In this document: one piece after another, positions 31,204-62,978 of the stretch | Numbering within the stretch: the first letter of the stretch is position 1 | Layout: the number at the start of each line of letters is the position of its first letter | Source of the DNA: a virus | Length of the DNA: 64,000 bases | IMG/VR virus record: IMGVR_UViG_3300046714_000544 | Location: 5,169 to 69,168 of that record | Direction: 5' to 3' (one strand) | Notes under the pieces: generated by a model | What the model was told of the DNA's origin: nothing | Seen by the model: only the letters and a program-made list of their open reading frames with translations | The model's database searches: none | Made by a program: the position numbers and the translations under genes

Positions 31204-31470
31204 TCACTTCGCACTCTTCAACTGCACAACCAGACCGTAGTTAAGTGTATGTGGTTTAGTCCAACTAGGAGGATAAATCCTAGGATGAGCTTCCTTAGTG
31301 AAATAGTCTCCATCGCACACCCCCACACAATTCCCTTTTGGATCTACTTGAGTAGGGCCGCAGCCTTCGCACAAAACCTCAGCAGCGAGGCCCTTGTTCC
31401 ATTCTTCAACAGTTGTTAATCCCACGAAATCGTCAAACTCCGGGATACATTGCTTGCAATGGTCGCTCAA
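31204..31470 (-). CDS. Cys-rich hypothetical protein
   Basis: CKQC..CEGCGPTQVD..GNC motif. Confidence 0.55.
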   Translation of the reverse strand: MSDHCKQCIPEFDDFVGLTTVEEWNKGLAAEVLCEGCGPTQVDPKGNCVGVCDGDYFTKEAHPRIYPPSWTKPHTLNYGLVVQLKSAK

Positions 31471-32642
31471 CCCTTCACACTCAGCAGCGGCCGCAGCTTC
31501 GCCACCACAGACACCAAATCCATCTGCTGCCTCATGACCACATCAATCGACTTAAAGGCCATAGGATGCTCACCCAGCATTCTCTCATCCTTCCTACAAT
31601 CAACCCCATCTGTTGCCTTCCTGAAGTCGTCGAGGGAGTAAAACTTCGCCGCCCCCTCCCTACTGATCCGCCGTCCAACTCCTGCCGCCGCACTGTGAAA
31701 CGCCCCCGTTGCCCCCTTACCACAAACAATATAAGTGGGCTTCCCCAAACCGCCGGGGATGACTCCAAGATCTCCCTTCCCTGCACGAATGGCCCCCCTT
31801 CGGAGAACGAAGACATGCTCGTTAAAGTGCCGCTCCCAGGAGACGAAGTTGTGAGGACTGTCCACAACCGTCCGCCACTTCGGCTGGAAAGGGAAGAAGG
31901 ACTCGACGATGTCCTTCACAACCTCCATGATGTTCTCCCGGTTCCAGGCTGCGTAGTCCTGGGTCCACTGGACGGCATCACGGCACGCCTGCATCTCACT
32001 GCTCCCCGAGAGGAAGGAGGCAAATTCGGGCGGGATGTGCTCGTTGTGTGGGAGCAACCGCGCCGCTGCAGTGTGGAAGGTGGAAAGAGTCTTGCCGATG
32101 TCCCGGCTCCCTGCCTGGACAACCACCCAGAGGTTCTGTCCCTCATCCTCGCATAGTTCGATGAAGTGGCCGCCGGCACCGAGGGTGCCAACCTGCCGCT
32201 GGGCACTGGCCAGGACCCGGATATCCGCCCCCTTGAGGTTGACAAAGAGGCCCCACTTCGGCCATCGACCGAGGCGGTCGATTGGCTCCGTGAATTGGAG
32301 CGTCCCCACCGGGATGCTGCTCTCGATGGCCGTCCTTAGTTCACTCACCAGGGCACTGGTGAGATCGGTGCTCTTCATCCCCAGGGTCGCGGCACGGACC
32401 CCGCACCCGATGTCATGCCCTAGGAGAGAGGGGATCAACGTCCGCCTCGTCGCCACCACCGTCCCGACCGGGCACCCAATCCCCTCCGTCGCATTTGGGA
32501 GGACGACGAGATGTTGGTAGATGTCAGGGGCGACGGAGAGTTCCTTCAGCCGCCCCCAAACTGCCTTCCCCACCTCAATCTGCGTCGCCCAATGGTGGAT
32601 CGGTACTTCCCGTCCTGTCCCGTAAGTCACCGCACTCATCAT
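31467..32642 (-). CDS. rtcB: RtcB-family RNA ligase homolog, catalytically degenerate
   Basis: DIGCG, GTLGAGGHFIE, GSR, HNF, RRGA, IPGGLG, GRRISR, P.AFK, LRPLLSVKG; the SHGAGR motif is replaced by AAGVGR. Confidence 0.9.
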   Translation of the reverse strand: MMSAVTYGTGREVPIHHWATQIEVGKAVWGRLKELSVAPDIYQHLVVLPNATEGIGCPVGTVVATRRTLIPSLLGHDIGCGVRAATLGMKSTDLTSALVSELRTAIESSIPVGTLQFTEPIDRLGRWPKWGLFVNLKGADIRVLASAQRQVGTLGAGGHFIELCEDEGQNLWVVVQAGSRDIGKTLSTFHTAAARLLPHNEHIPPEFASFLSGSSEMQACRDAVQWTQDYAAWNRENIMEVVKDIVESFFPFQPKWRTVVDSPHNFVSWERHFNEHVFVLRRGAIRAGKGDLGVIPGGLGKPTYIVCGKGATGAFHSAAAGVGRRISREGAAKFYSLDDFRKATDGVDCRKDERMLGEHPMAFKSIDVVMRQQMDLVSVVAKLRPLLSVKG

Positions 32643-32799
32643 CCGACTCCCTTTTAGGGTTGTTCTTTTAACTCTTTCAACAAAACCACAAGGTGGCGCT
32701 TGCATAGAAACAATGCGTCATTCAACGACACCACACACCAGTTGTAACAACTGTCGCATCTCTGCATTCCGCGTTCCATAGGGAACGCTACTGAGTACC

Positions 32800-53925: not shown

Positions 53926-54630
53926 CGTTCCCCCTCAATAGGCCGTCCCCGTGCGTCCTCATACGCCTTCCTCGCCGCCCGGGTTAGCGGGCTGGACATC
54001 CCATACTTCTTCCCAAGACGAATATACTCATCCCGTAACCTGTCGGTCTCCGTGGAGGCGAGCTTGAAATCGCGCGGGCTCATTGAGAGCCAGGCTGGGG
54101 GCTTGTGAGCGAAACCGCCTGAGGGCATCTCAACCTCCTATCGAACCAATGTAGAAGACCGGCGGGTAGACTTCCTTGAGCGCAAAGAGGAGGGTGCCGA
54201 CCTTCTCGCCAGGTCGTATTAGGCCAAAAGAGGCGCGGCCATTCCCGAACTCATCATAGAGTCTCTCCTCAGTCCACTCTGGATGCCCTATGAGGATGGC
54301 CATGATTTGCCAGCTGACTTTCTGCTCTATCACCTGCACTCCCAGCAAGGCTTCGACTTCAGGCAACAGGGTTGCAACTCCGGGCCGGAGAGGGTCATGT
54401 AGTTGATGGAGGATTCTTCCTTGAACTTCCTCACAGCTTCCCACCCGGCGGATAGCTGTCTATTGAGGGCGGATAGCTTTATCCGTTCCTGAAGCGAGAG
54501 CTTCGGAAGGTGGATGACGTCTGGCGCCATAATGTGTACCCCCTAAGACAACCTGTGTGGAACCGTCTCCGGTAGCGGACGGAGAAAACAATCGCCCACG
54601 GCTTGTGGCACCTGTGACAAAAACGCGGCG

Positions 54631-54885
54631 CTAGATCTCGTCGAACGGGTAGACATCCTTCACCCTCTCGTTGAAGAAGGCGGACGGGTCCTCCGTACTG
54701 GCCAGACCAATCGCAACATCCTCCGGCACATCGTAGTAGCAATACGACCTCCCGGAACGGAAGTCGATGTGAAGGTTGCCCTTCACCCAACCACTGGCGT
54801 CGTCACCCTCGGCGATGAAGAAGACCGTGTGCAGGTTGCTACTGTTGAGGGTGACTGGCCCTAGTTCGAAAATCTCCGCGGTCAT
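54631..54885 (-). CDS. KTSC-domain protein
   Basis: SSNL...LHIDFRSGRSYCYYDVP......L.S...S.FFNERVKDVY. Confidence 0.75.
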   Translation of the reverse strand: MTAEIFELGPVTLNSSNLHTVFFIAEGDDASGWVKGNLHIDFRSGRSYCYYDVPEDVAIGLASTEDPSAFFNERVKDVYPFDEI

Positions 54886-55320
54886 CGTCCACTCACTAGA
54901 TCGCCGATCAGGCCGCCGAAGTTGTTATCCAGGACCGCGATCGCGAGATAGAGAAGTCCGGCGGCGGTGAGGACTGCTAGGGTGAACCTTACGAATCTTT
55001 TCATCACTTCACCTCATCAACGCACAGAGTTGTGTTCTGGTCTGGTCTCAGGGACTGCTTGGCATCGTCCAATTCCCAAAGCGGCTGGTTACGACACGTA
55101 TAGCAGAGCGCGTTTGATGTTGCAGCCGTATCCTTGCCCGCGCAACCCTTGCACGATACTCGCCCATCCTTCAGCCTCTCCACCTCCGCCTGTAGTTCGG
55201 CGTTCTTGGCCAGCAACTCCGGGATGACGACAGAGGGGCAGGTGCTACCACAGGTAGCGTGCGGGTGACGTTGCTTGCATCCCTCCGCCGCCTCCCTCGC
55301 CCTCTCCGCTAGCGGCCTCA

Positions 55321-55698
55321 TCACTCAATGCTCCCGAAGATGGCGATCCTCCACGCCTCCTCGACGGTCAACCGCACCTGGGCCTCAGTGTCGCCGATGA
55401 TGACGGTGGCATCTTGGCCGGGGATGAGGAATTCCTCTCCGAGTCTGCGGGCGAGGAAGGCTTGGATCTCCCAAAAAGCGATTGGTTCGATGGTGAAGAG
55501 GTGGAGGGCGCTGGCGAGGGCCTCCTCAGCATCACATAATCGACATTTCTGCCCAGGTAGGGTGATCGGATCGCACCACAGGGGCCTGTTGTTCTCCGAG
55601 AGCCAGGAGGGCGGGAGGATCCGCGCGGCTTCCAGCAACATCTCCAACCCACCGCCTATGCGGCTGTCGTTGGCTGGTCCGACGAAATGTCGCGCCAT
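55321..55698 (-). CDS. Hypothetical protein
   Basis: AGGAG SD plus ATG directly after the ncRNA region. Confidence 0.5.
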   Translation of the reverse strand: MARHFVGPANDSRIGGGLEMLLEAARILPPSWLSENNRPLWCDPITLPGQKCRLCDAEEALASALHLFTIEPIAFWEIQAFLARRLGEEFLIPGQDATVIIGDTEAQVRLTVEEAWRIAIFGSIE

Positions 55699-55714
55699 CT
55701 GTTTCTCCTAGAGA

Positions 55715-56670
55715 AAGGCGTGCGGCCACCTGGCTGCCACCCCAGGATCACAGGCTCCCATAGCCTGGGTAATCGGCGCTTATACTATGGCCACGTTGGT
55801 TTGAAAGCAAGGAACAGGGTTACCCTCTTCGCTGCTTTCATATGAGAGGAGAGGGGAAGGCCGGTTCGCAAGGCCGGCATCCGAGCAGAGGGCTAAATGG
55901 GGTTTGCCCATGGCCATCCTCGTGCATTGAGGCAAATATGCTACTTCCCCCCGGACGACCCTAACGAACGTCGGAAAGAGGGCTGAGAGGATGATCCTCA
56001 GCGTTTAACACCTGGAGCATGCATCCAGTCGGGGCTATCTCCCCAACCTCTTCCCTTTACTACCTTAATCCACTATTGTGCACCACGCGACACCTCCGGG
56101 ACAGAAATCGGCCAATCGTCGGGCTTCGTTTAACCCACACCGAGTGGGCCTATACAGCCGCACGAGTTATAAGCTCGTCGCTGTTAGCTGGAGTCTTTAC
56201 ACCCGCGGCTCCCGGTGCCAGTGTGGGTACGCGCCTGGCTCGCGGTTAGCTTCTCGACACCCACTGTGAGCTAACAGACCTCCTGTTTCGCTTAGGTAGA
56301 ACGCGCTAACGACCCCAGACAGACTAGGGAGGTTTAACAAGCCTTCCCCTTCTTCACACGAAGATCACTCCGTGTTACGCTAGCACTTCGAAGATCACCT
56401 GCGGGCGATCCGTGCCCCATCCGCCGGTCTGTCAGCGGCGTAGAGTTGTTTTACCTCGGAAGAACGAGACAGCCGCAGTCACGACCTACGCGGCGCGCGC
56501 CTGATCAGCGTAGTGGGCTAAGCACCATGCCAATCCGGGACCTCCCCGCCTCGCGGTTAGGGGATGTCTCTCAAAATGGGGGCACGCCTGAAGGCAGTCC
56601 GGGCTCATCCTTGCAGATGAAGCAATCGGCCTCTCGCCTTCTATCGTAGGACGTGCGGCTGCGCTATAGC
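55715..56670 (-). ncRNA. Putative large structured non-coding RNA (~950 nt)
   Basis: No convincing minus-strand ORF in an otherwise packed arm; many hairpins and a long-range helix; G-U pairs mostly favour the minus strand. Confidence 0.55.
55721..55794 (-). ncRNA. tRNA-like cloverleaf (degenerate, TGG at the anticodon position)
   Basis: GTGGCCA/TGGCCGC acceptor, GTA/TAC D-stem, CAGGC-TATGGGA-GCCTG arm, CCTGG-GGTGGCAG-CCAGG T-arm; 74 nt; non-canonical loops. Confidence 0.6.
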
Positions 56671-57345
56671 TTCAGCCCCGTAGGCCGATGAGTTCGTTGT
56701 GCTCCTTGACCAAAAGGCGCGCAACATCTTCGGAGAGTCCCCCTACAACGATGCCGTGGGATTTCTGGCCATAGATCCAGTAGCCGTAGCCCAAAGCCTC
56801 ACAGTACCACATTTCCCGGGCCAAGGATTCACTCATGGCTTCTCCATAGCTGGTTAAAAAATGCGGCAGTTGGTGTAGACGAAACCCGAGTACACCGTTT
56901 GCCAACGCCAGAACGCTTGAAAGCCAGGTGCCCCATCGAAGACAATGATGTCTCCGTTATCGAAGACGTGAGCCATGGCTTCTCCTTGTAAGTTGTTGAT
57001 GGGGAAGGACTTAGACGGCTTCCTTACGCGCAATCTTCTCCGCGTCGTAAGCCCTATTGAACTGCCATTCCGCCCACTCCTGCAGAGAGAGGTAGAAGGA
57101 TGAGGGCAAGCGCTCGCCGCTGAGAGTCCAGTTGAAAAACTCATCCAGACACTTTCTGAAATCGTCCTTCGTAATCCTTGGATCGGGCATGAGCGGATAC
57201 CTCCGAGCGCCGTCCGTTTGGCGCGGAAATGGCAAAAGATCCGACAGCCTTGCGGCTTCGGATCCTTGAACGTCGGTAGACTGTTCGTGTCAGTCTATCT
57301 CAACCTATCCAGTCCCCTAAGTACTCTCACGCTTGACCGGCCGTC

Positions 57346-58347
57346 CTAGGCCGCTTGCTCCGTTGCTTCCGGCATGCCATCGTCCGTTGCCTGCGCCGCC
57401 GCCGCTGCTTCGTCGCCCGGAACGGGAGTGCTGTCCGTCTTGGGCGCGTCTTCCGTCTTCTTCTTGGCCGTCTTCTTCATCTCCGCGATCACGACAAGGG
57501 CCGTTGCGACGCCTTGCTTGGCACATTGCGGGCAAATCGGCCGTCCCATGAGGATGTTGCCCTCGGGGTCCGTCACGGCCATGATGCTGTCGGCTGAGGT
57601 AAGGCCGGTCGCCGTCTCGCTACTTGTGAGGATCTTGAGGTGCTTCTTGTAGGCGTCGTTCTCAGGGTCCGTCACGTGACCTGCGCAACCAACTGTGACT
57701 CGCTGATTGCCCTTGCCGTGGAAACCCACGCGCAAGGCGTTCATGTCAAAGTCCGGCGCTCCGATGCCGGCCATCGCGTTCCACAAGTCGGCGTATATCG
57801 TGCGTCCAGAATCGGCGGAGTAGACGTTGCTCGCGTTTTCGACCTTGGACAATCCGTGCTCTTTGGCCGATTCGGGCAACGCCTTGATCGCGTCCTTGCT
57901 CTCGCCGGCCGCGATGCGGAGTGCGGCGTGCGCCAAGGTTGCGAACCATCGCATCGGATCATTCCCGAGTACGACGGGGTTGACCTTGATGACGCGAGCG
58001 CCGTTGAACGTGAGGCCAAGCCCTTTCGCGTCGGGGCTTTCGGACGCGGTGCCGTTCGGTGGAATGAAGTAACCGCGCGGCTTGAACGTAACCTCTTTCG
58101 TCGTCGCGTCGGCCACCTTGGTTCCGTCCTGATACGCATACTTGACCGACGTTGCGCTCAGGTCAGGCGCCAGGATGACGGCTACCTTGCCGATGTTAAC
58201 GCCCAGTGTTGCGATGACGGCTTTCAGGGTGTCTTCGGCGTACAACTGAACGTCCGCGATGGTTTGCACCGCATACGTTCCCATCTTCTTGAGTTTGGCC
58301 GGGAGCGTCTTCGTCGGCCTCTCGACCGTCGTTGTTTGGTTCGTCAT
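57346..58347 (-). CDS. First early gene; degenerate SprT-like protein with zinc ribbon
   Basis: IKVNP..L...WFATLAHAALR (HExxH position degenerate); C-terminal VGC...ICPQC; strongly biased codons. Confidence 0.5.
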   Translation of the reverse strand: MTNQTTTVERPTKTLPAKLKKMGTYAVQTIADVQLYAEDTLKAVIATLGVNIGKVAVILAPDLSATSVKYAYQDGTKVADATTKEVTFKPRGYFIPPNGTASESPDAKGLGLTFNGARVIKVNPVVLGNDPMRWFATLAHAALRIAAGESKDAIKALPESAKEHGLSKVENASNVYSADSGRTIYADLWNAMAGIGAPDFDMNALRVGFHGKGNQRVTVGCAGHVTDPENDAYKKHLKILTSSETATGLTSADSIMAVTDPEGNILMGRPICPQCAKQGVATALVVIAEMKKTAKKKTEDAPKTDSTPVPGDEAAAAAQATDDGMPEATEQAA

Positions 58348-58742
58348 GTCTCTCTCGCTTCTGCCCCGTAGGGCCGTCTGTACAGAAAACCCCGTAACTT
58401 GTTGACAATCCCGGAATTGGGAAAGTCAATCAGTTACAGCCGTTCGTCCGTAAGTCGTTGAATCGAGAGTACTTAGGGGATGACGGACACTCCGTTGGCC
58501 GGCGCGAAACCGGTGCGCGAGTGGACGTCTGGATAGGTTGAGAAAGAGCGACACCTTTCCACGCGCTAGGCTTAAAACCGGTGGACCCCCGGCGGGCGCT
58601 AGACACGTGCGGCCGGTATACTGGCCAGAGCACGGGAGCGATGCTACATCTAGGTAGAAGATACGCCCCGAGGGCCGTCCTGTCCAGTCCCGATAGGCAA
58701 CATAGTGCACAATCGAACATGAAACGTTTTCATGGATAGGGC

Positions 58743-59210
58743 TGGCATGATTATTGCAGGTGATGTAAAAAGATGTGAAAGGGTTCGCCTTTCATTCGCC
58801 CCACTTGGCATGACAATTGATATGCCAACCATTGGCACATTCCTTGCTACCCTGCAATCGGCGTGCCACGGGAAAAAATGCCGGCACTCAAAGGGCGTGC
58901 CAGGGAAATTTGCCCGATTTGCTGGCACGAGAAAGTGAGAGCAAGAACCGTGCCAGAAATGGTGCAGGATGTTGCACTTCGTTAACAAACTTTTACAACC
59001 GTTGGCTGGCACGATTGTTGCTAGGATGTAAAAAGATGTTAACTGATCAGCACTTACAGCCCATGGGCAAGAAGCGTGCCAACTGCTGGCATGAAGATTG
59101 CTAGCATGCAAAAGAGGTGCCACCCCGCGCCTGCAATAGGTGTGCCAGCGGTAAGTCCTTTAGAATGAGTAGCTTACCTCGTTGGTTGGTTGTCTGCAAG
59201 GGTCGTGCCA
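58743..59210. promoter_or_regulatory. Array of sigma54 (RpoN) -24/-12 consensus sites in both orientations
   Basis: Ten TGGCAY-N5-TTGC matches (4 on +, 6 on -) plus 3-4 near matches. Confidence 0.85.
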
Positions 59211-60087: not shown

Positions 60088-60913
60088 ACGAGGTTCGATC
60101 GTGACGAAGGACGTGGTTAAGAGGAAATTGGCGATCAAGGCCCTGAAAGAGGCCGGGGTACCCATCCCAGATGAGCTAAAGGAGAGGATTATACATAGGG
60201 TGAAAAGTCCGATAGGGACGTTGACGGTCAGGGAGGGTGCTGGGGTGGTCAGGTCACCCGCTCTGTCCATCTTGAAGCAGTTCGAGAAGAACATCGAGGG
60301 GCAGACCCCGGTGGCGGATGCGATGGCGGTGTCCGAGGTTGCGGGAGAGCGTCTATCCGGTCCAGAGAAGGCCCTTATCCACGCCCTGACCCAAACAAGG
60401 CGGGGGAAGTCAGTCCAGCTAGCGCGCCATATCGCCGAGCAGGGGGTCAACCCGGTCCGGGTCTTCGACCTGTACAGCAAGGGGGTGCTTTATATGAAGA
60501 AGGCCGAGGCTCTTCAAGCCGCCGCGGAGCAGATGCCCCAGGTTATGAAGAATCTCCTCGGTCATGCCGCCTCGGAGGCGGGGGATGTGTGCTCCCTTTG
60601 CGTAGGGACGGGGGAGGTGGCCCGTTCCGCGACCTGTGAGACCGCCCCGGCGAAGCAAGTCCCCTGTCCATCCTGCGAGGGGGCTGGGAAGCGCCTAGAG
60701 CCGTCCAAGCTGAAGCAATTCGCCATCGACAAGCTCCTGGAGGTTACCGATCTGTCGAAGAAGGGCGGAGGGGTGACGGTCAACCAGCAAACCAACGTCG
60801 TCAACACCCCAGCCAACGGTGCGGGTATCCTGGAGAAGATGCGGAAGGCTGCGGATGAGGTGTTGTATCAGAAGAAAGAAGACGTCGTCGAGGCGGAAGT
60901 TGTATCATCCTAA
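60062..60913 (+). CDS. Putative terminase small subunit with CxxCxGxG zinc finger
   Basis: Directly upstream of and overlapping TerL; CSLCVGTG..CPSCEGAG; C-terminal VNQQTNV...VEAEVV. Confidence 0.55.
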   Translation: MEAAVGVVERGSIVTKDVVKRKLAIKALKEAGVPIPDELKERIIHRVKSPIGTLTVREGAGVVRSPALSILKQFEKNIEGQTPVADAMAVSEVAGERLSGPEKALIHALTQTRRGKSVQLARHIAEQGVNPVRVFDLYSKGVLYMKKAEALQAAAEQMPQVMKNLLGHAASEAGDVCSLCVGTGEVARSATCETAPAKQVPCPSCEGAGKRLEPSKLKQFAIDKLLEVTDLSKKGGGVTVNQQTNVVNTPANGAGILEKMRKAADEVLYQKKEDVVEAEVVSS

Positions 60914-62978
60914 GGTTATTGCCGATTCGGTCACAAAGATGGAGCGCGCCCTGGGCCTTGACCTGAGGAGCTACTCCTTCAGCGAGGTGGAGGGGTTCGA
61001 GCATCGGCTCCGGGAGGTTACTTGGGAGCCGGGGCTGGATACCGTCCTAGCGACCCAGCCGGAGGATGTGCAGGCCTACATCCTCAACGAACTCGCCCTC
61101 TCTCAGTGCGACTGGAGATACTGGAGTGAGCGTTACTGTAAGATCAGCAACGATGCCGGCGTGATTGTGCCGGTCCGGCTCTGGCCCAGCCAGGAGAAGG
61201 TCTTTGAGCTTGTCCAGCAACAGGAACTCAAGGCTTTCATCGACTGGCAGGATGGGGCGAAGTTGTCCATGCAGGCAAAGATTTGGATCATCATTGCAAA
61301 GGCGCGGCAGCTGGGGTTGACGGTTATTGGGGAGGATCTTGTTGCCCACCTCACCCTTCTCTTCAGCAACACCCGCTCCATTATCGCCTCGGATGACATC
61401 CGGACCAACAGCCCCAAGCTATACCGGGTCTTCAACATGATGTACAACAACATGCCCAAGTGGATGCAGCCACCCTGCACGGCGAATGTGAAAGCCGTCA
61501 ACATGCACTTCGGGGCGATTGAGAGTGACCTGGTCGTCAGTGGTGGGAATCAGAAGAACACCATGGGCCAGGGCATGACCATCGATGCGGTTCACTTGAC
61601 GGAGATGTCAACGTGGCGGGATGACGTTGCCCGGGGTATTGAGGAGGACCTCAAACCGGCCTTCAAAAGTAGCAAGAAACACCACTCCATCTTCATCATT
61701 GAGAGCACTGGTAAGGGGGGTAAGGGGAACTACTTCTATGATCAGTGGGACGCATGTGTGAAGGGGGTGGGACATCTCGCGCCCATCTTCATAGGCTGGC
61801 ACTCCTGCCCGGAGAAGTATGAACGGCGGGATGATGGGATTGTTATCGGGGATGATGTGCTGTCCCTCGCGCGGAGGTTGAAGGAGGAGCAGAACGTCAC
61901 CCTGACGAAGGAGCAGCTCTGCTGGTACCAGTTTGAGAAGCGGGCGGCTGAAGCTACGGGGGATCTGCAGATCTTCCTCCAGGAGTACCCCAGCAGCGCG
62001 GAGGAGGCATTCCAGTTCGGCCTGCGGAGTGTCTTCCCAATTGAGGTCCGCAATAAGATTCGCAATGAGGTTAGACGCCCGCTGGCGGTCTATGACATCA
62101 ACTGGGCAGCGCGGAGGTTGAAGGTTGAGCCGATGGGCGACCGATCCCCTATAGAGTATCAGCAACAGGGCCGCGGGTTGGATGTAGATGAATGGCTCAA
62201 TAGCGCGGACGATTCGAAGGCGGATAACCGGTTGATCATCTGGGAGATGCCGAAGAGGGGATATGTCTACACGGTAGGCATGGACGTCTCCTATGGGCAT
62301 GATGGGATGGACAATAGTGCGATCCAGGTTGTCAGGGTGGGGAATAGGTGGGCAGAGGATGAGCAGGTGGCGGAATGGAGTGGGAACCGGAACCCGGCGG
62401 AGTTGGACATCCCTGCCTGGATTATGGGCAACCTCTACGTCGATGCCTACGAGGGCGTGCCGGCGAAGATGGCGATTGAGACTAACGAGGGAAGTCCGGG
62501 GATCCTGGTACAGACGAAGTTGCTGGAGCGGGGGTACGGGAACTTCTATGTCACCCGTCGGCGGGACCGGATTGGCGGGGGGTACACGAAGTCGATTGGC
62601 TGGCACACGAACGTTTCCACCCGAGAGCCCCTCATCCATATGGGCGTGGATGCGGTTAAGAAGGGGATCCTCACCCTCAACAGCACCGGGACGTTGAAGG
62701 AGATGGACACCTTCGTCGTAACTATGACGACAGAGGGGAAGAGGAAGATTGAGCACGCACCTCGTTACCATGATGACCGCCTGATCGCCCTCTTCATCGC
62801 CTATAGTGCGGCCCATGATGGAGATACGTCGGTGGTGGCGGATGAGCGGGCGCGGTTTTACGAGAGGATGAAGCAGCCGACTGAGAAGAAGGTGCGGCAG
62901 TATCAGCTCCTCCCCGTCAGCGCGGAGCAGGTGAACGAGATGTGGGAGCAGAGTATGGACAATTATGGTGGACTTTAA
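60900..62978 (+). CDS. terL: Terminase large subunit
   Basis: LWPSQ, KARQLGLT Walker A, VHLTE Walker B, IIESTGKG, QEYPSS.EEAF, GMDVSYG..DNS, HDDRLIA; likely TTG start at 60900. Confidence 0.92.
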   Translation: MYHPKVIADSVTKMERALGLDLRSYSFSEVEGFEHRLREVTWEPGLDTVLATQPEDVQAYILNELALSQCDWRYWSERYCKISNDAGVIVPVRLWPSQEKVFELVQQQELKAFIDWQDGAKLSMQAKIWIIIAKARQLGLTVIGEDLVAHLTLLFSNTRSIIASDDIRTNSPKLYRVFNMMYNNMPKWMQPPCTANVKAVNMHFGAIESDLVVSGGNQKNTMGQGMTIDAVHLTEMSTWRDDVARGIEEDLKPAFKSSKKHHSIFIIESTGKGGKGNYFYDQWDACVKGVGHLAPIFIGWHSCPEKYERRDDGIVIGDDVLSLARRLKEEQNVTLTKEQLCWYQFEKRAAEATGDLQIFLQEYPSSAEEAFQFGLRSVFPIEVRNKIRNEVRRPLAVYDINWAARRLKVEPMGDRSPIEYQQQGRGLDVDEWLNSADDSKADNRLIIWEMPKRGYVYTVGMDVSYGHDGMDNSAIQVVRVGNRWAEDEQVAEWSGNRNPAELDIPAWIMGNLYVDAYEGVPAKMAIETNEGSPGILVQTKLLERGYGNFYVTRRRDRIGGGYTKSIGWHTNVSTREPLIHMGVDAVKKGILTLNSTGTLKEMDTFVVTMTTEGKRKIEHAPRYHDDRLIALFIAYSAAHDGDTSVVADERARFYERMKQPTEKKVRQYQLLPVSAEQVNEMWEQSMDNYGGL

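What the first reader, a model, noticed from the sequence alone, without database searches (positions are those of the whole stretch)
55715..56670. ~950-nt structured non-coding region in the early arm: candidate new large ncRNA
Seen: the surrounding minus arm is tightly packed with genes, yet this stretch has no credible minus-strand ORF and is dense in stems. Minus-strand examples: CAGCCGCAC...GACTGCGGCTG long-range helix (56661-56653 with 56480-56470); GATCGCC-CGCA-GGTGATC; CACGGAG-TGAT-CTTCGTG; GGGAAGG..CCTCCC; GTTAGCTC..AGCTAAC; ACGAG..CTCGT; GGGAAGAGG...CCTCTTTCC enclosing three hairpins; GAAAGCA..GGGTAACCC..TGCTTTC. It ends in a tRNA-like domain. Known: phages encode giant structured RNAs such as GOLLD and ROOL, often near tRNAs. 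I see no group I/II intron, RNase P or tmRNA hallmarks.
Basis: partly seen in the sequence, partly recalled or inferred. Interest (0 to 1): 0.75.

Follow-up and report, generated by a model that had tools for sequence, protein, structure and literature searches.

The report
Orphan gene-free kilobase in soil phage
A stretch of nearly 1,000 bases in the early genes of an uncultured soil phage encodes no protein and may make a non-coding RNA with a tRNA-shaped end, but its folding is no better than that of neighbouring genes and no relative could be found to test it.

Summary
The gap is real. Window 55699-56671 (973 nt, minus-strand early arm) is non-coding: stops in all six frames, 8 of 8 internal ORFs score negative, and there is no three-base periodicity. 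It lies in the largest low-coding stretch of this 69-kb phage.

The listed stems exist, but they are not denser or more stable than background. The region's MFE z is -2.4 and -2.2, against -0.9 to -2.0 for three coding controls. Hairpin counts and 200-nt window z-scores are unremarkable.

The tRNA-like end (55720-55794) has 20 of 21 cloverleaf pairs, the only such site in the genome. However, 7 of 40 shuffled genomes also have one. It lies 5.2 kcal/mol above the MFE and matches neither ARAGORN at default settings nor Rfam tRNA.

No Rfam family matches. No homologue was found in any collection I could reach, and no RNA data were available. Covariation and expression are therefore untested.

My best reading, at 0.35, is an untranslated, modular RNA segment of the early operon whose 3' hairpin and tRNA-shaped module act as processing or stability signals. 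Functionless spacer DNA remains a serious rival at 0.3.

Earlier follow-ups in this scan described similar gene-free blocks with tRNA look-alikes in other phages. I did not check those notes.

The parts
55699..56671 (-). ORF-free intergenic stretch (973 nt) in the minus-strand early arm
   Evidence: Stops in all six frames. 8 of 8 internal ORFs have negative coding scores. No period-3 signal. It lies in the largest low-coding gap of the genome.
56672..56836 (-). Upstream 54-aa ORF with GGAG Shine-Dalgarno at 5-nt spacing; it sets the 5' boundary
   Evidence: GC1/2/3 of 0.61/0.39/0.62 on the longer TTG form. Only itself was found among 5.8 bn proteins, so coding status rests on the SD and composition alone.
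56469..56662 (-).
   Evidence: Pair probabilities of at least 0.86. Folded alone: -89.8 kcal/mol, z -3.19, 0 of 200 shuffles as stable. The boundaries were chosen after the fold, so z is inflated.
56356..56411 (-). Two adjacent 8-bp hairpins with loops CGCA and UGAU
55973..56055 (-). Four-way junction: a 9-bp closing helix around three hairpins. Relaxed ARAGORN calls it 'tRNA-Met cat'.
   Evidence: Folded alone: z -3.07, 1 of 200 shuffles as stable. ARAGORN at -ps90. A single-sequence covariance model R1 found no second copy in 785 kb of related phage loci.
55790..55904 (-). C-rich, G-poor patch on the sense RNA (C/G 1.8-1.9). The preceding ~730 nt have C/G of about 1 or less.
   Evidence: Its reading as a Rho-loading (rut-like) site is inference.
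55802..55840 (-).
   Evidence: -20.1 kcal/mol, z -5.31, 0 of 200 shuffles as stable. The terminator scan found none on the minus strand.
55720..55794 (-). tRNA-shaped cloverleaf. It has a 7-bp acceptor, 3-bp D stem, 5-bp anticodon stem with a 7-nt loop (UGG in the centre, A where U33 should be), 5-bp T stem with an 8-nt loop, and no encoded CCA.
   Evidence: Found by ARAGORN only at -ps90 or lower. 20 of 21 geometric pairs, unique in the genome, but 7 of 40 shuffled genomes have such a site. No RF00005 match at E<=10. The cloverleaf is 5.2 kcal/mol above the MFE; z -1.14.
55321..55711 (-). Downstream 125-aa gene with its AGGAG Shine-Dalgarno (55707-55711) and ATG at 55698; it sets the 3' boundary
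   Evidence: One relative, P0061 (55% identity), aligns from residue 1, so the start is conserved.
55659..56661 (.). Four copies of the word CAGCCGCA or its complement: 56654-56661 (-), 56470-56477 (+), 56155-56162 (+), 55659-55666 (-). On the sense RNA the order is word, complement, complement, word. The last copy lies in codons 8-11 of the downstream gene.
   Evidence: 4 of the window's 7 copies lie here. 10-bp perfect complementarity between copies (I12 and I14). 9 of 1000 shuffles and 14 of 273 genome tiles reach four copies of any 8-mer class.

Best explanation
The stretch is non-coding sequence that is read through as an untranslated part of the leftward early operon. It most likely acts at the RNA level as a string of local modules, not as one giant ornate fold.

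Shown:
- It encodes no protein.
- It carries no trace of a recently decayed gene.
- It lies in sense orientation between genes of one arm.
- No sigma-70-like promoter or intrinsic terminator is predicted on that strand.
- It sits about 2.2-3.5 kb downstream of a cluster of sigma-54 sites.

Inferred mechanism:
- About 730 nt in which G is at least as common as C keep Rho from loading on the unprotected RNA.
- A C-rich patch (55790-55904), a very stable hairpin (55802-55840) and a tRNA-shaped module (55720-55794) sit directly before the ribosome-binding site of the next gene.
- There they act as a gate and processing point. A host enzyme that measures tRNA shape, with RNase P the obvious candidate, cuts at the module.
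- The cut separates the first five early cistrons and the long leader from the downstream message and leaves a structured, protected end.

I cannot say whether the released 0.9-kb piece has a job of its own.
For: - Non-coding status.
- No residual codon periodicity (0.52 against 0.73 +/- 0.15 in shuffles and 1.35-3.36 in coding sequence), which argues against a fresh pseudogene.
- No paralogue or protein trace by tblastx against the phage's own genome and 89 loci.
- Seven sigma-54 matches (0-2 mismatches) on the minus strand at 58853-59210, and none with 0-1 mismatch inside the stretch.
- In 54500-58500, 0 minus-strand terminators and 0 minus-strand sigma-70-like promoters.
- Sense-strand composition, with G at least equal to C and then a C/G 1.8-1.9 patch.
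- Hairpin z -5.31 and four-way junction z -3.07; 5' domain z -3.19.
- The cloverleaf geometry is unique in the genome.
- Relaxed ARAGORN finds 3 sense-strand and 0 antisense cloverleaf candidates at -ps85. 0 of 500 shuffles reach 3, and at -ps90 1 of 500 reaches the observed 2.
- Bacterial RNase P cuts phage RNAs that lack a T loop, such as P4 CI, P1/P7 C4 and phi80 M3 (passage read in PMC5499578).
- The downstream gene has its own SD and a conserved N-terminus, so the stretch is a leader or spacer and not part of that gene.
Against: - Whole-stretch folding is no better than that of coding controls. Local z-scores and hairpin counts are at background.
- The module z-scores used boundaries chosen after folding. 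Coding flanks contain windows just as extreme: z -3.3, -3.9 and -4.7.
- The cloverleaf is not the predicted fold (T arm probability at most 0.08, D arm 0.0). It has z -1.14, matches no tRNA model, and a site of equal quality appears in 7 of 40 shuffled genomes.
- One of the three ARAGORN candidates (56465-56552) has z +0.40 and conflicts with the 5' domain fold.
- No homologue was found, so there is no covariation. No RNA data were available.
- Transcription through the stretch is inferred from gene order and consensus scans only.
Confidence: 0.35

Rival explanations
1. Functionless spacer: old non-coding DNA, or a piece acquired by illegitimate recombination, that selection has not yet removed. 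The stems and the cloverleaf are what a 58% G+C sequence gives by chance.
For: - Every global and local folding measure is at background.
- A cloverleaf of equal quality appears in 7 of 40 shuffled genomes.
- The whole early arm is made of orphan genes: 0 Pfam or PHROG hits in 11 distinct neighbour proteins.
- Relatives with 38-47% TerL identity share none of it apart from one ligase-like gene, so turnover here is fast.
- Weak direct repeats flank the stretch (22 nt, 73% identical, at 55705-55726 and 56638-56659), as a recombination scar might leave.
Against: - Phage genomes are compact, and this is the largest non-coding stretch of the genome.
- No codon periodicity is left, so it is not a fresh gene wreck.
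- Base composition equals that of the arm.
- The clustering of cloverleaf-like folds on the sense strand only is rare in shuffles (0 of 500 and 1 of 500).
- Identical sequence is held in fragments from several soil and rhizosphere runs. This shows only one strain and says nothing on selection.
Confidence: 0.3
2. One large, ornate, trans-acting non-coding RNA, comparable in kind to GOLLD, ROOL or the T5-type large RNA. It would be released from the early transcript, with the tRNA-shaped module as its 3' end.
For: - Its length, about 0.95 kb, is in the range of such RNAs.
- Long-range helices are predicted: 8 bp closing 194 nt and 10 bp closing 497 nt.
- 195 pairs with probability above 0.8, against 133 +/- 52 in shuffles.
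- MFE z is -2.2 to -2.4.
- The sense strand folds better than the antisense strand.
- GOLLD and ROOL lie near tRNAs and in phages (passage read in PMC5737381).
- Earlier follow-ups in this scan report large phage RNAs with tRNA look-alikes. These are leads only.
Against: - No Rfam match at any threshold tried.
- Folding statistics are not separable from coding controls.
- 3 of 18 shuffles have as many well-defined pairs.
- A 13-of-15 complementary arm pair within 1 kb is roughly what chance gives (my estimate, about 0.5 expected).
- No own promoter or terminator was found.
- No homologue was found in any collection.
- The genome has no true tRNA gene.
Confidence: 0.12
3. A DNA-level site: a replication origin, a recombination or partition site, or an array of protein-binding sites, with the repeated CAGCCGCA word as the binding motif.
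For: - 4 of the window's 7 copies of CAGCCGCA lie within 1 kb, in both orientations. Only 9 of 1000 shuffles reach this for any 8-mer.
- Non-coding DNA in an early region is a usual place for origins.
Against: - No iterons or tandem repeats: only short two- or three-copy families.
- No A+T-rich unwinding stretch; G+C is 0.55-0.61 throughout.
- No integrase and no reverse transcriptase in the genome.
- 14 of 273 natural genome tiles also reach four copies of some 8-mer class.
- One of the four copies lies inside a gene.
Confidence: 0.1
4. A decayed cluster of true tRNA genes.
For: Three cloverleaf-like candidates lie on one strand within 1 kb at relaxed ARAGORN thresholds. Phages often carry tRNA clusters in non-coding blocks (general knowledge).
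Against: - Stems are intact (20 of 21 pairs) while every universally conserved loop feature is missing: no U33, no G18G19, no T-loop consensus (read directly; the consensus itself is recalled). Random decay would give the opposite pattern.
- RF00005 finds nothing at E<=10 in the whole genome or in the 96-nt piece.
- Spacings of 180 and 400 nt are unlike tRNA clusters.
- Of 13 related loci, 12 carry no tRNA. One has a tRNA-Met just upstream of TerL, not at this place.
Confidence: 0.05

Closest known systems
GOLLD (RF01998) and ROOL (RF03087) large ornate RNAs of phages and prophages
   Same: A long (0.6-0.8 kb class) ORF-free block in a phage, with a tRNA-related neighbourhood and unknown function. 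ROOL averages 581 nt, and both lie near tRNAs and in prophages (PMC5737381, passages read). The abstract listing of PMC12286853 was seen.
   Different: No covariance-model match at gathering score or at E<=10. No true tRNA in this genome. No demonstrated multistem-junction or pseudoknot architecture. No relatives. The host and habitat (soil, 58% G+C) differ.
RNase P-processed phage RNAs that mimic tRNA shape: P4 CI RNA, P1/P7 C4 RNA, phi80 M3 RNA
   Same: A phage early or immunity leader carries a small tRNA-shaped or hairpin module that lacks a T-loop equivalent and is cut out by host RNase P (PMC5499578, passage read). Here a T-loop-less cloverleaf sits at the 3' end of a long leader, directly before a gene. 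Repeated complementary words recall the seqA/B/C pairing of P4, which I cite from memory.
   Different: No Rfam C4 match. The leader here is about 10 times longer. Cleavage is untested. No lysogeny functions were found (no integrase).
Transfer RNA (RF00005)
   Same: 7/3-4/5/5 stem geometry with a 7-nt anticodon loop and a 4-5-nt variable region.
   Different: No model match. ARAGORN finds it only at -ps90 or lower. A stands at position 33, the T loop has 8 nt without the consensus, the D loop lacks GG, and no CCA is encoded (read). The cloverleaf is not the MFE.
Large structured RNA of T5-like phages ('RNAX') and other gene-free blocks with tRNA look-alikes, as reported by earlier follow-ups of this scan
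   Same: Blocks of 0.4-1.3 kb without ORFs in phage early or tRNA regions that carry a non-decoding tRNA look-alike (notes e1-156130, e1-4037443, e1-3488234, e1-3438341).
   Different: Those are AI notes that I did not check. blastn of this stretch against 50,697 GenBank phage records, which should include T5-like phages, found no match. The look-up of look-alike stretches in the scan's other windows found none.

Membership tests
GOLLD / ROOL (Rfam RF01998, RF03087) | Match to the family covariance model | tested here: not met
   0 matches at gathering score in the whole window. Neither family appears at E<=10 in five sub-searches.
GOLLD / ROOL (Rfam RF01998, RF03087) | Conserved multistem junctions and pseudoknots supported by covariation | not testable with these tools
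   No homologue could be obtained.
GOLLD / ROOL (Rfam RF01998, RF03087) | Frequent location next to tRNA genes | tested here: not met
   0 tRNA genes in the window and genome at default ARAGORN and with RF00005 at E<=10.
tRNA (RF00005) | Covariance-model or ARAGORN default detection | tested here: not met
tRNA (RF00005) | Cloverleaf stem geometry | tested here: met
   20 of 21 pairs at 55722-55794. A site of this quality occurs in 7 of 40 shuffled genomes.
tRNA (RF00005) | Conserved U33, D-loop GG, T-loop consensus (features recalled) | tested here: not met
   Read from the ARAGORN drawing and the sequence.
Group I / group II intron | Model match; an interrupted host gene; for group II, a reverse-transcriptase ORF or domain V | tested here: not met
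   No Rfam match. No RVT_1 in the genome. The downstream gene has its own SD and a conserved N-terminus. The upstream ORF ends in a stop.
RNase P-processed phage regulatory RNAs (C4 / CI) | Match to the Rfam C4 model | tested here: not met
RNase P-processed phage regulatory RNAs (C4 / CI) | Cleavage by RNase P at the 5' side of the acceptor-like stem | not testable with these tools
   Needs an enzyme assay or end mapping. No RNA run was listed (this blank is not evidence).
Protein-coding gene or recent pseudogene | Open frame, codon bias, three-base periodicity, or protein-level similarity | tested here: not met
Phage attachment site / integration module | Adjacent integrase or recombinase | tested here: not met
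   No Phage_integrase match in the genome at E<=1. Serine recombinases were not searched.
Replication origin | Iterons and an A+T-rich unwinding element | tested here: not met

The most novel reading that the evidence does not exclude
The stretch is the gene of an orphan, roughly 0.9-kb early phage RNA that host RNase P releases at its tRNA-shaped 3' module. It then works in trans as a decoy or scaffold for tRNA-handling proteins. Candidates are host tRNA-cutting defence nucleases, or the phage's own full-length RtcB-like protein, which has lost its nucleophilic histidine and so could hold RNA ends without joining them. That would be a new kind of RNA-based host takeover in soil phages.
Probability: 0.1. 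Interest if true: 0.7.

Novelty: new variant of a known kind. Interest (0 to 1): 0.3.

Why it matters
If the stretch is a working RNA, it would add a soil-phage lineage, possibly with an acidobacterial host, to the handful of phage groups known to invest about a kilobase in non-coding RNA. It would also give a second example, after the small P4 and P1 RNAs, of a T-loop-less tRNA shape used as a processing mark in a phage early transcript.

As things stand the value is modest. The phage is uncultured, and the stretch has no relatives that I could reach. Its predicted folding cannot be told apart from that of neighbouring genes.

The useful outcome is the negative one. A list of stems read by eye in 58% G+C DNA is not evidence of structure. 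The only features that stand out statistically are the absence of coding signal and the clustering of cloverleaf-like folds on the sense strand.

Tried and rejected
HOMOLOGUE HUNTS (all empty for the stretch itself)
- blastn 'distant' against phages and plasmids.
- The scan's own look-alike index.
- The stretch as DNA against five related virus records.
- nhmmer and sensitive blastn against 80 loci; tblastx against the phage's own genome and 89 loci.
- Single-sequence covariance model R1 of the four-way junction over 785 kb.
- Exact 21-mer and 19-mer scans of viral contigs.

FLANK-PROTEIN ROUTES
- Three flank proteins in viral contigs: nothing.
- The 333-aa neighbour and the 54-aa neighbour each found only themselves among 5.8 bn proteins.
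- Exhaustive phmmer with the 125-aa protein found one relative, P0061, on a 3.9-kb Logan contig.
- The P0060+P0061 alignment found nothing in metagenome contigs or viral contigs.
- A back-translated 10-residue block gave 17 loci, none a relative by tblastn.

TerL ROUTE
- 58 homologues, best 65% identity.
- 80 IMG/VR loci with at most 47% identity and 9 GTDB loci with at most 26%.
- These share structural genes only.

SEQUENCING RUNS
- No RNA holder was listed.
- The four DNA runs laid gave only identical low-depth fragments and no variants.

IDEAS REJECTED
- Recoded stop codon.
- Micro-ORF tiling.
- Fresh pseudogene.
- Intron.
- Retron or DGR.
- attP.
- Ro/Y-RNA module: no TROVE domain.
- CCA-adding enzyme.
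- MITE: no terminal inverted repeats at the ends (read).
- Sigma-54 promoter inside the stretch.
- Internal tandem modules.

FLAWED STEP
- The first ARAGORN shuffle test used the -ss option, which changed the calls (shown). It was replaced.

SUPPLEMENTS
- Supplements of the papers cited were not opened.
Full report
WHERE IT LIES. The window is bases 5169-69168 of a 69,168-bp IMG/VR virus record with a 127-bp terminal repeat. DNA identical to the stretch is held by nine soil and rhizosphere runs. None is on record as RNA. The four runs I laid gave only identical low-depth fragments. The large terminase (window 60819-62978) has its nearest cultured relatives in two Tunturiibacter phages at 24% identity. 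Its nearest uncultured relatives reach 65%. The phage is therefore isolated. Genes on the minus strand run leftward from a gene-free control region. The finding lies 2.2-3.5 kb downstream of those sites, after five small or orphan genes.

THE GAP IS NON-CODING. The 54-aa ORF upstream ends at 56672-56674 and the 125-aa gene downstream starts at 55698. The 973 nt between them have no credible ORF.
- Over 55650-56760 each minus frame has 15-16 stops and each plus frame 11-13. All three stop codons occur in every frame, so recoding is excluded.
- All 8 ORFs of 40 aa or more inside the stretch score negative in a codon model trained on 24 long ORFs of the same phage, and their GC1/2/3 is flat. The flanking genes show the phage's pattern of high GC3 and low GC2.
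- In a crude gene call, 55699-57010 is the largest of 27 low-coding gaps.
- Three-base periodicity is absent: 0.52 over 27 windows, all below 1. Shuffles give 0.73 +/- 0.15 and coding controls 1.35-3.36. The stretch is therefore not a recently broken gene.
- tblastx finds no paralogue or protein trace.
- Only two or three weak SD-led micro-ORFs exist.
- The downstream gene is real and its start is right. Its single relative among 1.84 bn representatives, P0061, aligns from residue 1.

THE STEMS EXIST BUT DO NOT STAND OUT. The comparisons with background are as follows.
- Whole-stretch MFE z is -2.41 and -2.2. Three coding pieces of the same length and arm give -1.51, -0.91 and -2.00.
- Well-definedness measures are about 1.2-1.3 sd from shuffles. 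3 of 18 shuffles have as many high-probability pairs.
- 200-nt windows average z -0.88 inside and -0.45 outside, p = 0.16. Five flank windows are as extreme as the best inside window.
- Hairpins with stems of 7 bp or more number 10, against 5.8 +/- 2.4 in shuffles. 22 of 300 shuffles and 17 of 78 coding tiles reach 10.
- Individual modules score well when cut at their helix ends: the 5' domain z -3.19, the four-way junction -3.07 and the 39-nt hairpin -5.31. Those boundaries were chosen after folding.

THE tRNA-LIKE END.
- ARAGORN at default settings finds no tRNA in the window or genome. RF00005 finds nothing at E<=10 in the genome or in the 96-nt piece.
- At relaxed thresholds ARAGORN reports three sense-strand candidates in the stretch and none antisense at -ps85 or -ps90. 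They are 55720-55794, 55973-56053 and 56465-56552.
- That clustering is rare. 0 of 500 shuffles reach three at -ps85 and 1 of 500 reaches two at -ps90. Among 558 strand-tiles of the genome, one has three and three have two at -ps85.
- Looked at singly the picture is weaker. The 56465-56552 candidate has z +0.40 and conflicts with the 5' domain. The 55973-56053 candidate is a four-way junction with a 9-bp closing helix, which is not tRNA geometry.
- The 55720-55794 candidate has 20 of 21 pairs in strict tRNA geometry and is unique in the genome. Such a site also arises in 7 of 40 shuffled genomes.
- Its cloverleaf (-26.3 kcal/mol) lies 5.2 kcal/mol above the MFE (-31.5). T-arm pair probabilities are at most 0.08 and D-arm probabilities are 0.
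- It lacks U33, the D-loop GG, the T-loop consensus and an encoded CCA (read; the consensus features are recalled). Intact stems with non-canonical loops argue against a decayed tRNA gene. They fit either a shape mimic or chance.

KNOWN FAMILIES. No Rfam family reaches its gathering score in the window. At E<=10, five sub-searches give only scattered low-bit matches (snoRNA, lncRNA, CRISPR repeat, sRNA and leader models) with no sensible family. The genome has no integrase, reverse transcriptase, TROVE (Ro) protein or CCA-adding enzyme. It has no iterons or A+T-rich stretch.

RELATIVES. Nothing resembling the stretch turned up. Flank proteins are orphans, except for P0061 on a 3.9-kb Logan contig. 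Searches with P0060 and P0061 in JGI and IMG/VR were empty. Phages with 38-47% TerL identity share only structural genes and one ligase-like gene. Covariation is therefore untestable here.

CONTEXT THAT BEARS ON MECHANISM.
- No minus-strand terminator or sigma-70-like promoter is predicted between 58500 and 54500. The stretch is presumably read through from the early promoters; this is inference.
- An untranslated kilobase inside an operon invites Rho. The sense RNA has C/G of about 1 or less for about 730 nt, then a C-rich patch (C/G 1.8-1.9) at 55790-55904. That patch overlaps the very stable hairpin and precedes the cloverleaf and the SD of the next gene.
- Four of the window's seven copies of CAGCCGCA or its complement lie in 55659-56661. 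On the RNA the order is word, complement, complement, word. This allows alternative 8-10-bp pairings, one of them with codons 8-11 of the downstream gene. The clustering is only mildly unusual: 9 of 1000 shuffles and 14 of 273 genome tiles.

READING. By exclusion, an RNA-level role is the most likely single class. My specific model is a modular leader with a 3' gate and processing point at the hairpin and the tRNA-shaped module, cut by RNase P. RNase P is known to cut T-loop-less phage RNAs (PMC5499578, passage read). I hold this model at 0.35. The rivals are:
- functionless spacer DNA, 0.3;
- a DNA-level site, 0.1;
- a decayed tRNA cluster, 0.05.

COMPARISON AND NOVELTY. The stretch works like, at most, the leaders of P4 and P1 that carry RNase P-cut tRNA-shaped RNAs. 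In size it resembles GOLLD and ROOL (PMC5737381, passages read). It fails every membership test I could run for these and for tRNA. Earlier follow-ups of this scan describe gene-free blocks with non-decoding tRNA look-alikes in other phages. I did not test those notes, and they share no sequence with this stretch. If the stretch is real, it is a new variant of a known kind. Interest is 0.3.

Noticed in passing
window 31467-32705 (-): Full-length RtcB-like protein (Pfam RtcB, 2e-75). In the alignment to Pyrococcus RtcB (PDB 1uc2) it has Ala where the CHGAGR histidine stands, Gln for the His of the HtGSR block, and Gly for the Asn of GNHF. It is probably a non-ligating RtcB.
   Followed up: partly
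window 58743-59210: Thirteen matches to the sigma-54 -24/-12 consensus with 0-2 mismatches on both strands within 470 bp, seven of them perfect. The rest of the 64-kb window has only one 1-mismatch match and otherwise scattered 2-mismatch matches.
   Followed up: partly
window 55659-56661: Four of the window's seven copies of CAGCCGCA or its complement cluster here, ordered word, complement, complement, word on the sense RNA. They offer alternative 8-10-bp pairings, and one copy lies inside the downstream gene.
   Followed up: partly
window 54559-54651 (-): A fourth relaxed-threshold ARAGORN candidate ('tRNA-Asp gtc' with a long extra arm, -ps90). It lies at a second small low-coding gap (about 54445-54630) of the same arm.
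   Followed up: no
window 56834-56845 and 56974-56985: Two tiny neighbouring ORFs (54 aa and 40 aa) start with the identical 12-nt block GGAGAAGCCATG, read on the minus strand (family D4).
   Followed up: no
window 55705-55726 and 56638-56659: A 22-nt direct repeat (73% identical, with an exact 8-mer) brackets the ORF-free stretch. One copy lies just after the upstream stop codon and the other covers the downstream Shine-Dalgarno. It could be a recombination scar or chance (family D1).
   Followed up: no
protein P0061 (Logan contig, 3901 bp): This is the only relative of the downstream 125-aa protein among 1.84 bn representatives (55% identity, 114 aa; it lacks an 11-residue segment that holds a C-x-x-C in this phage). 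Its contig would be the first place to look for a homologous leader.
   Followed up: partly
L005 264-338 (+): A related uncultured phage (TerL 41% identical) carries a bona fide tRNA-Met just upstream of its terminase gene. The phage studied here has no true tRNA.
   Followed up: no
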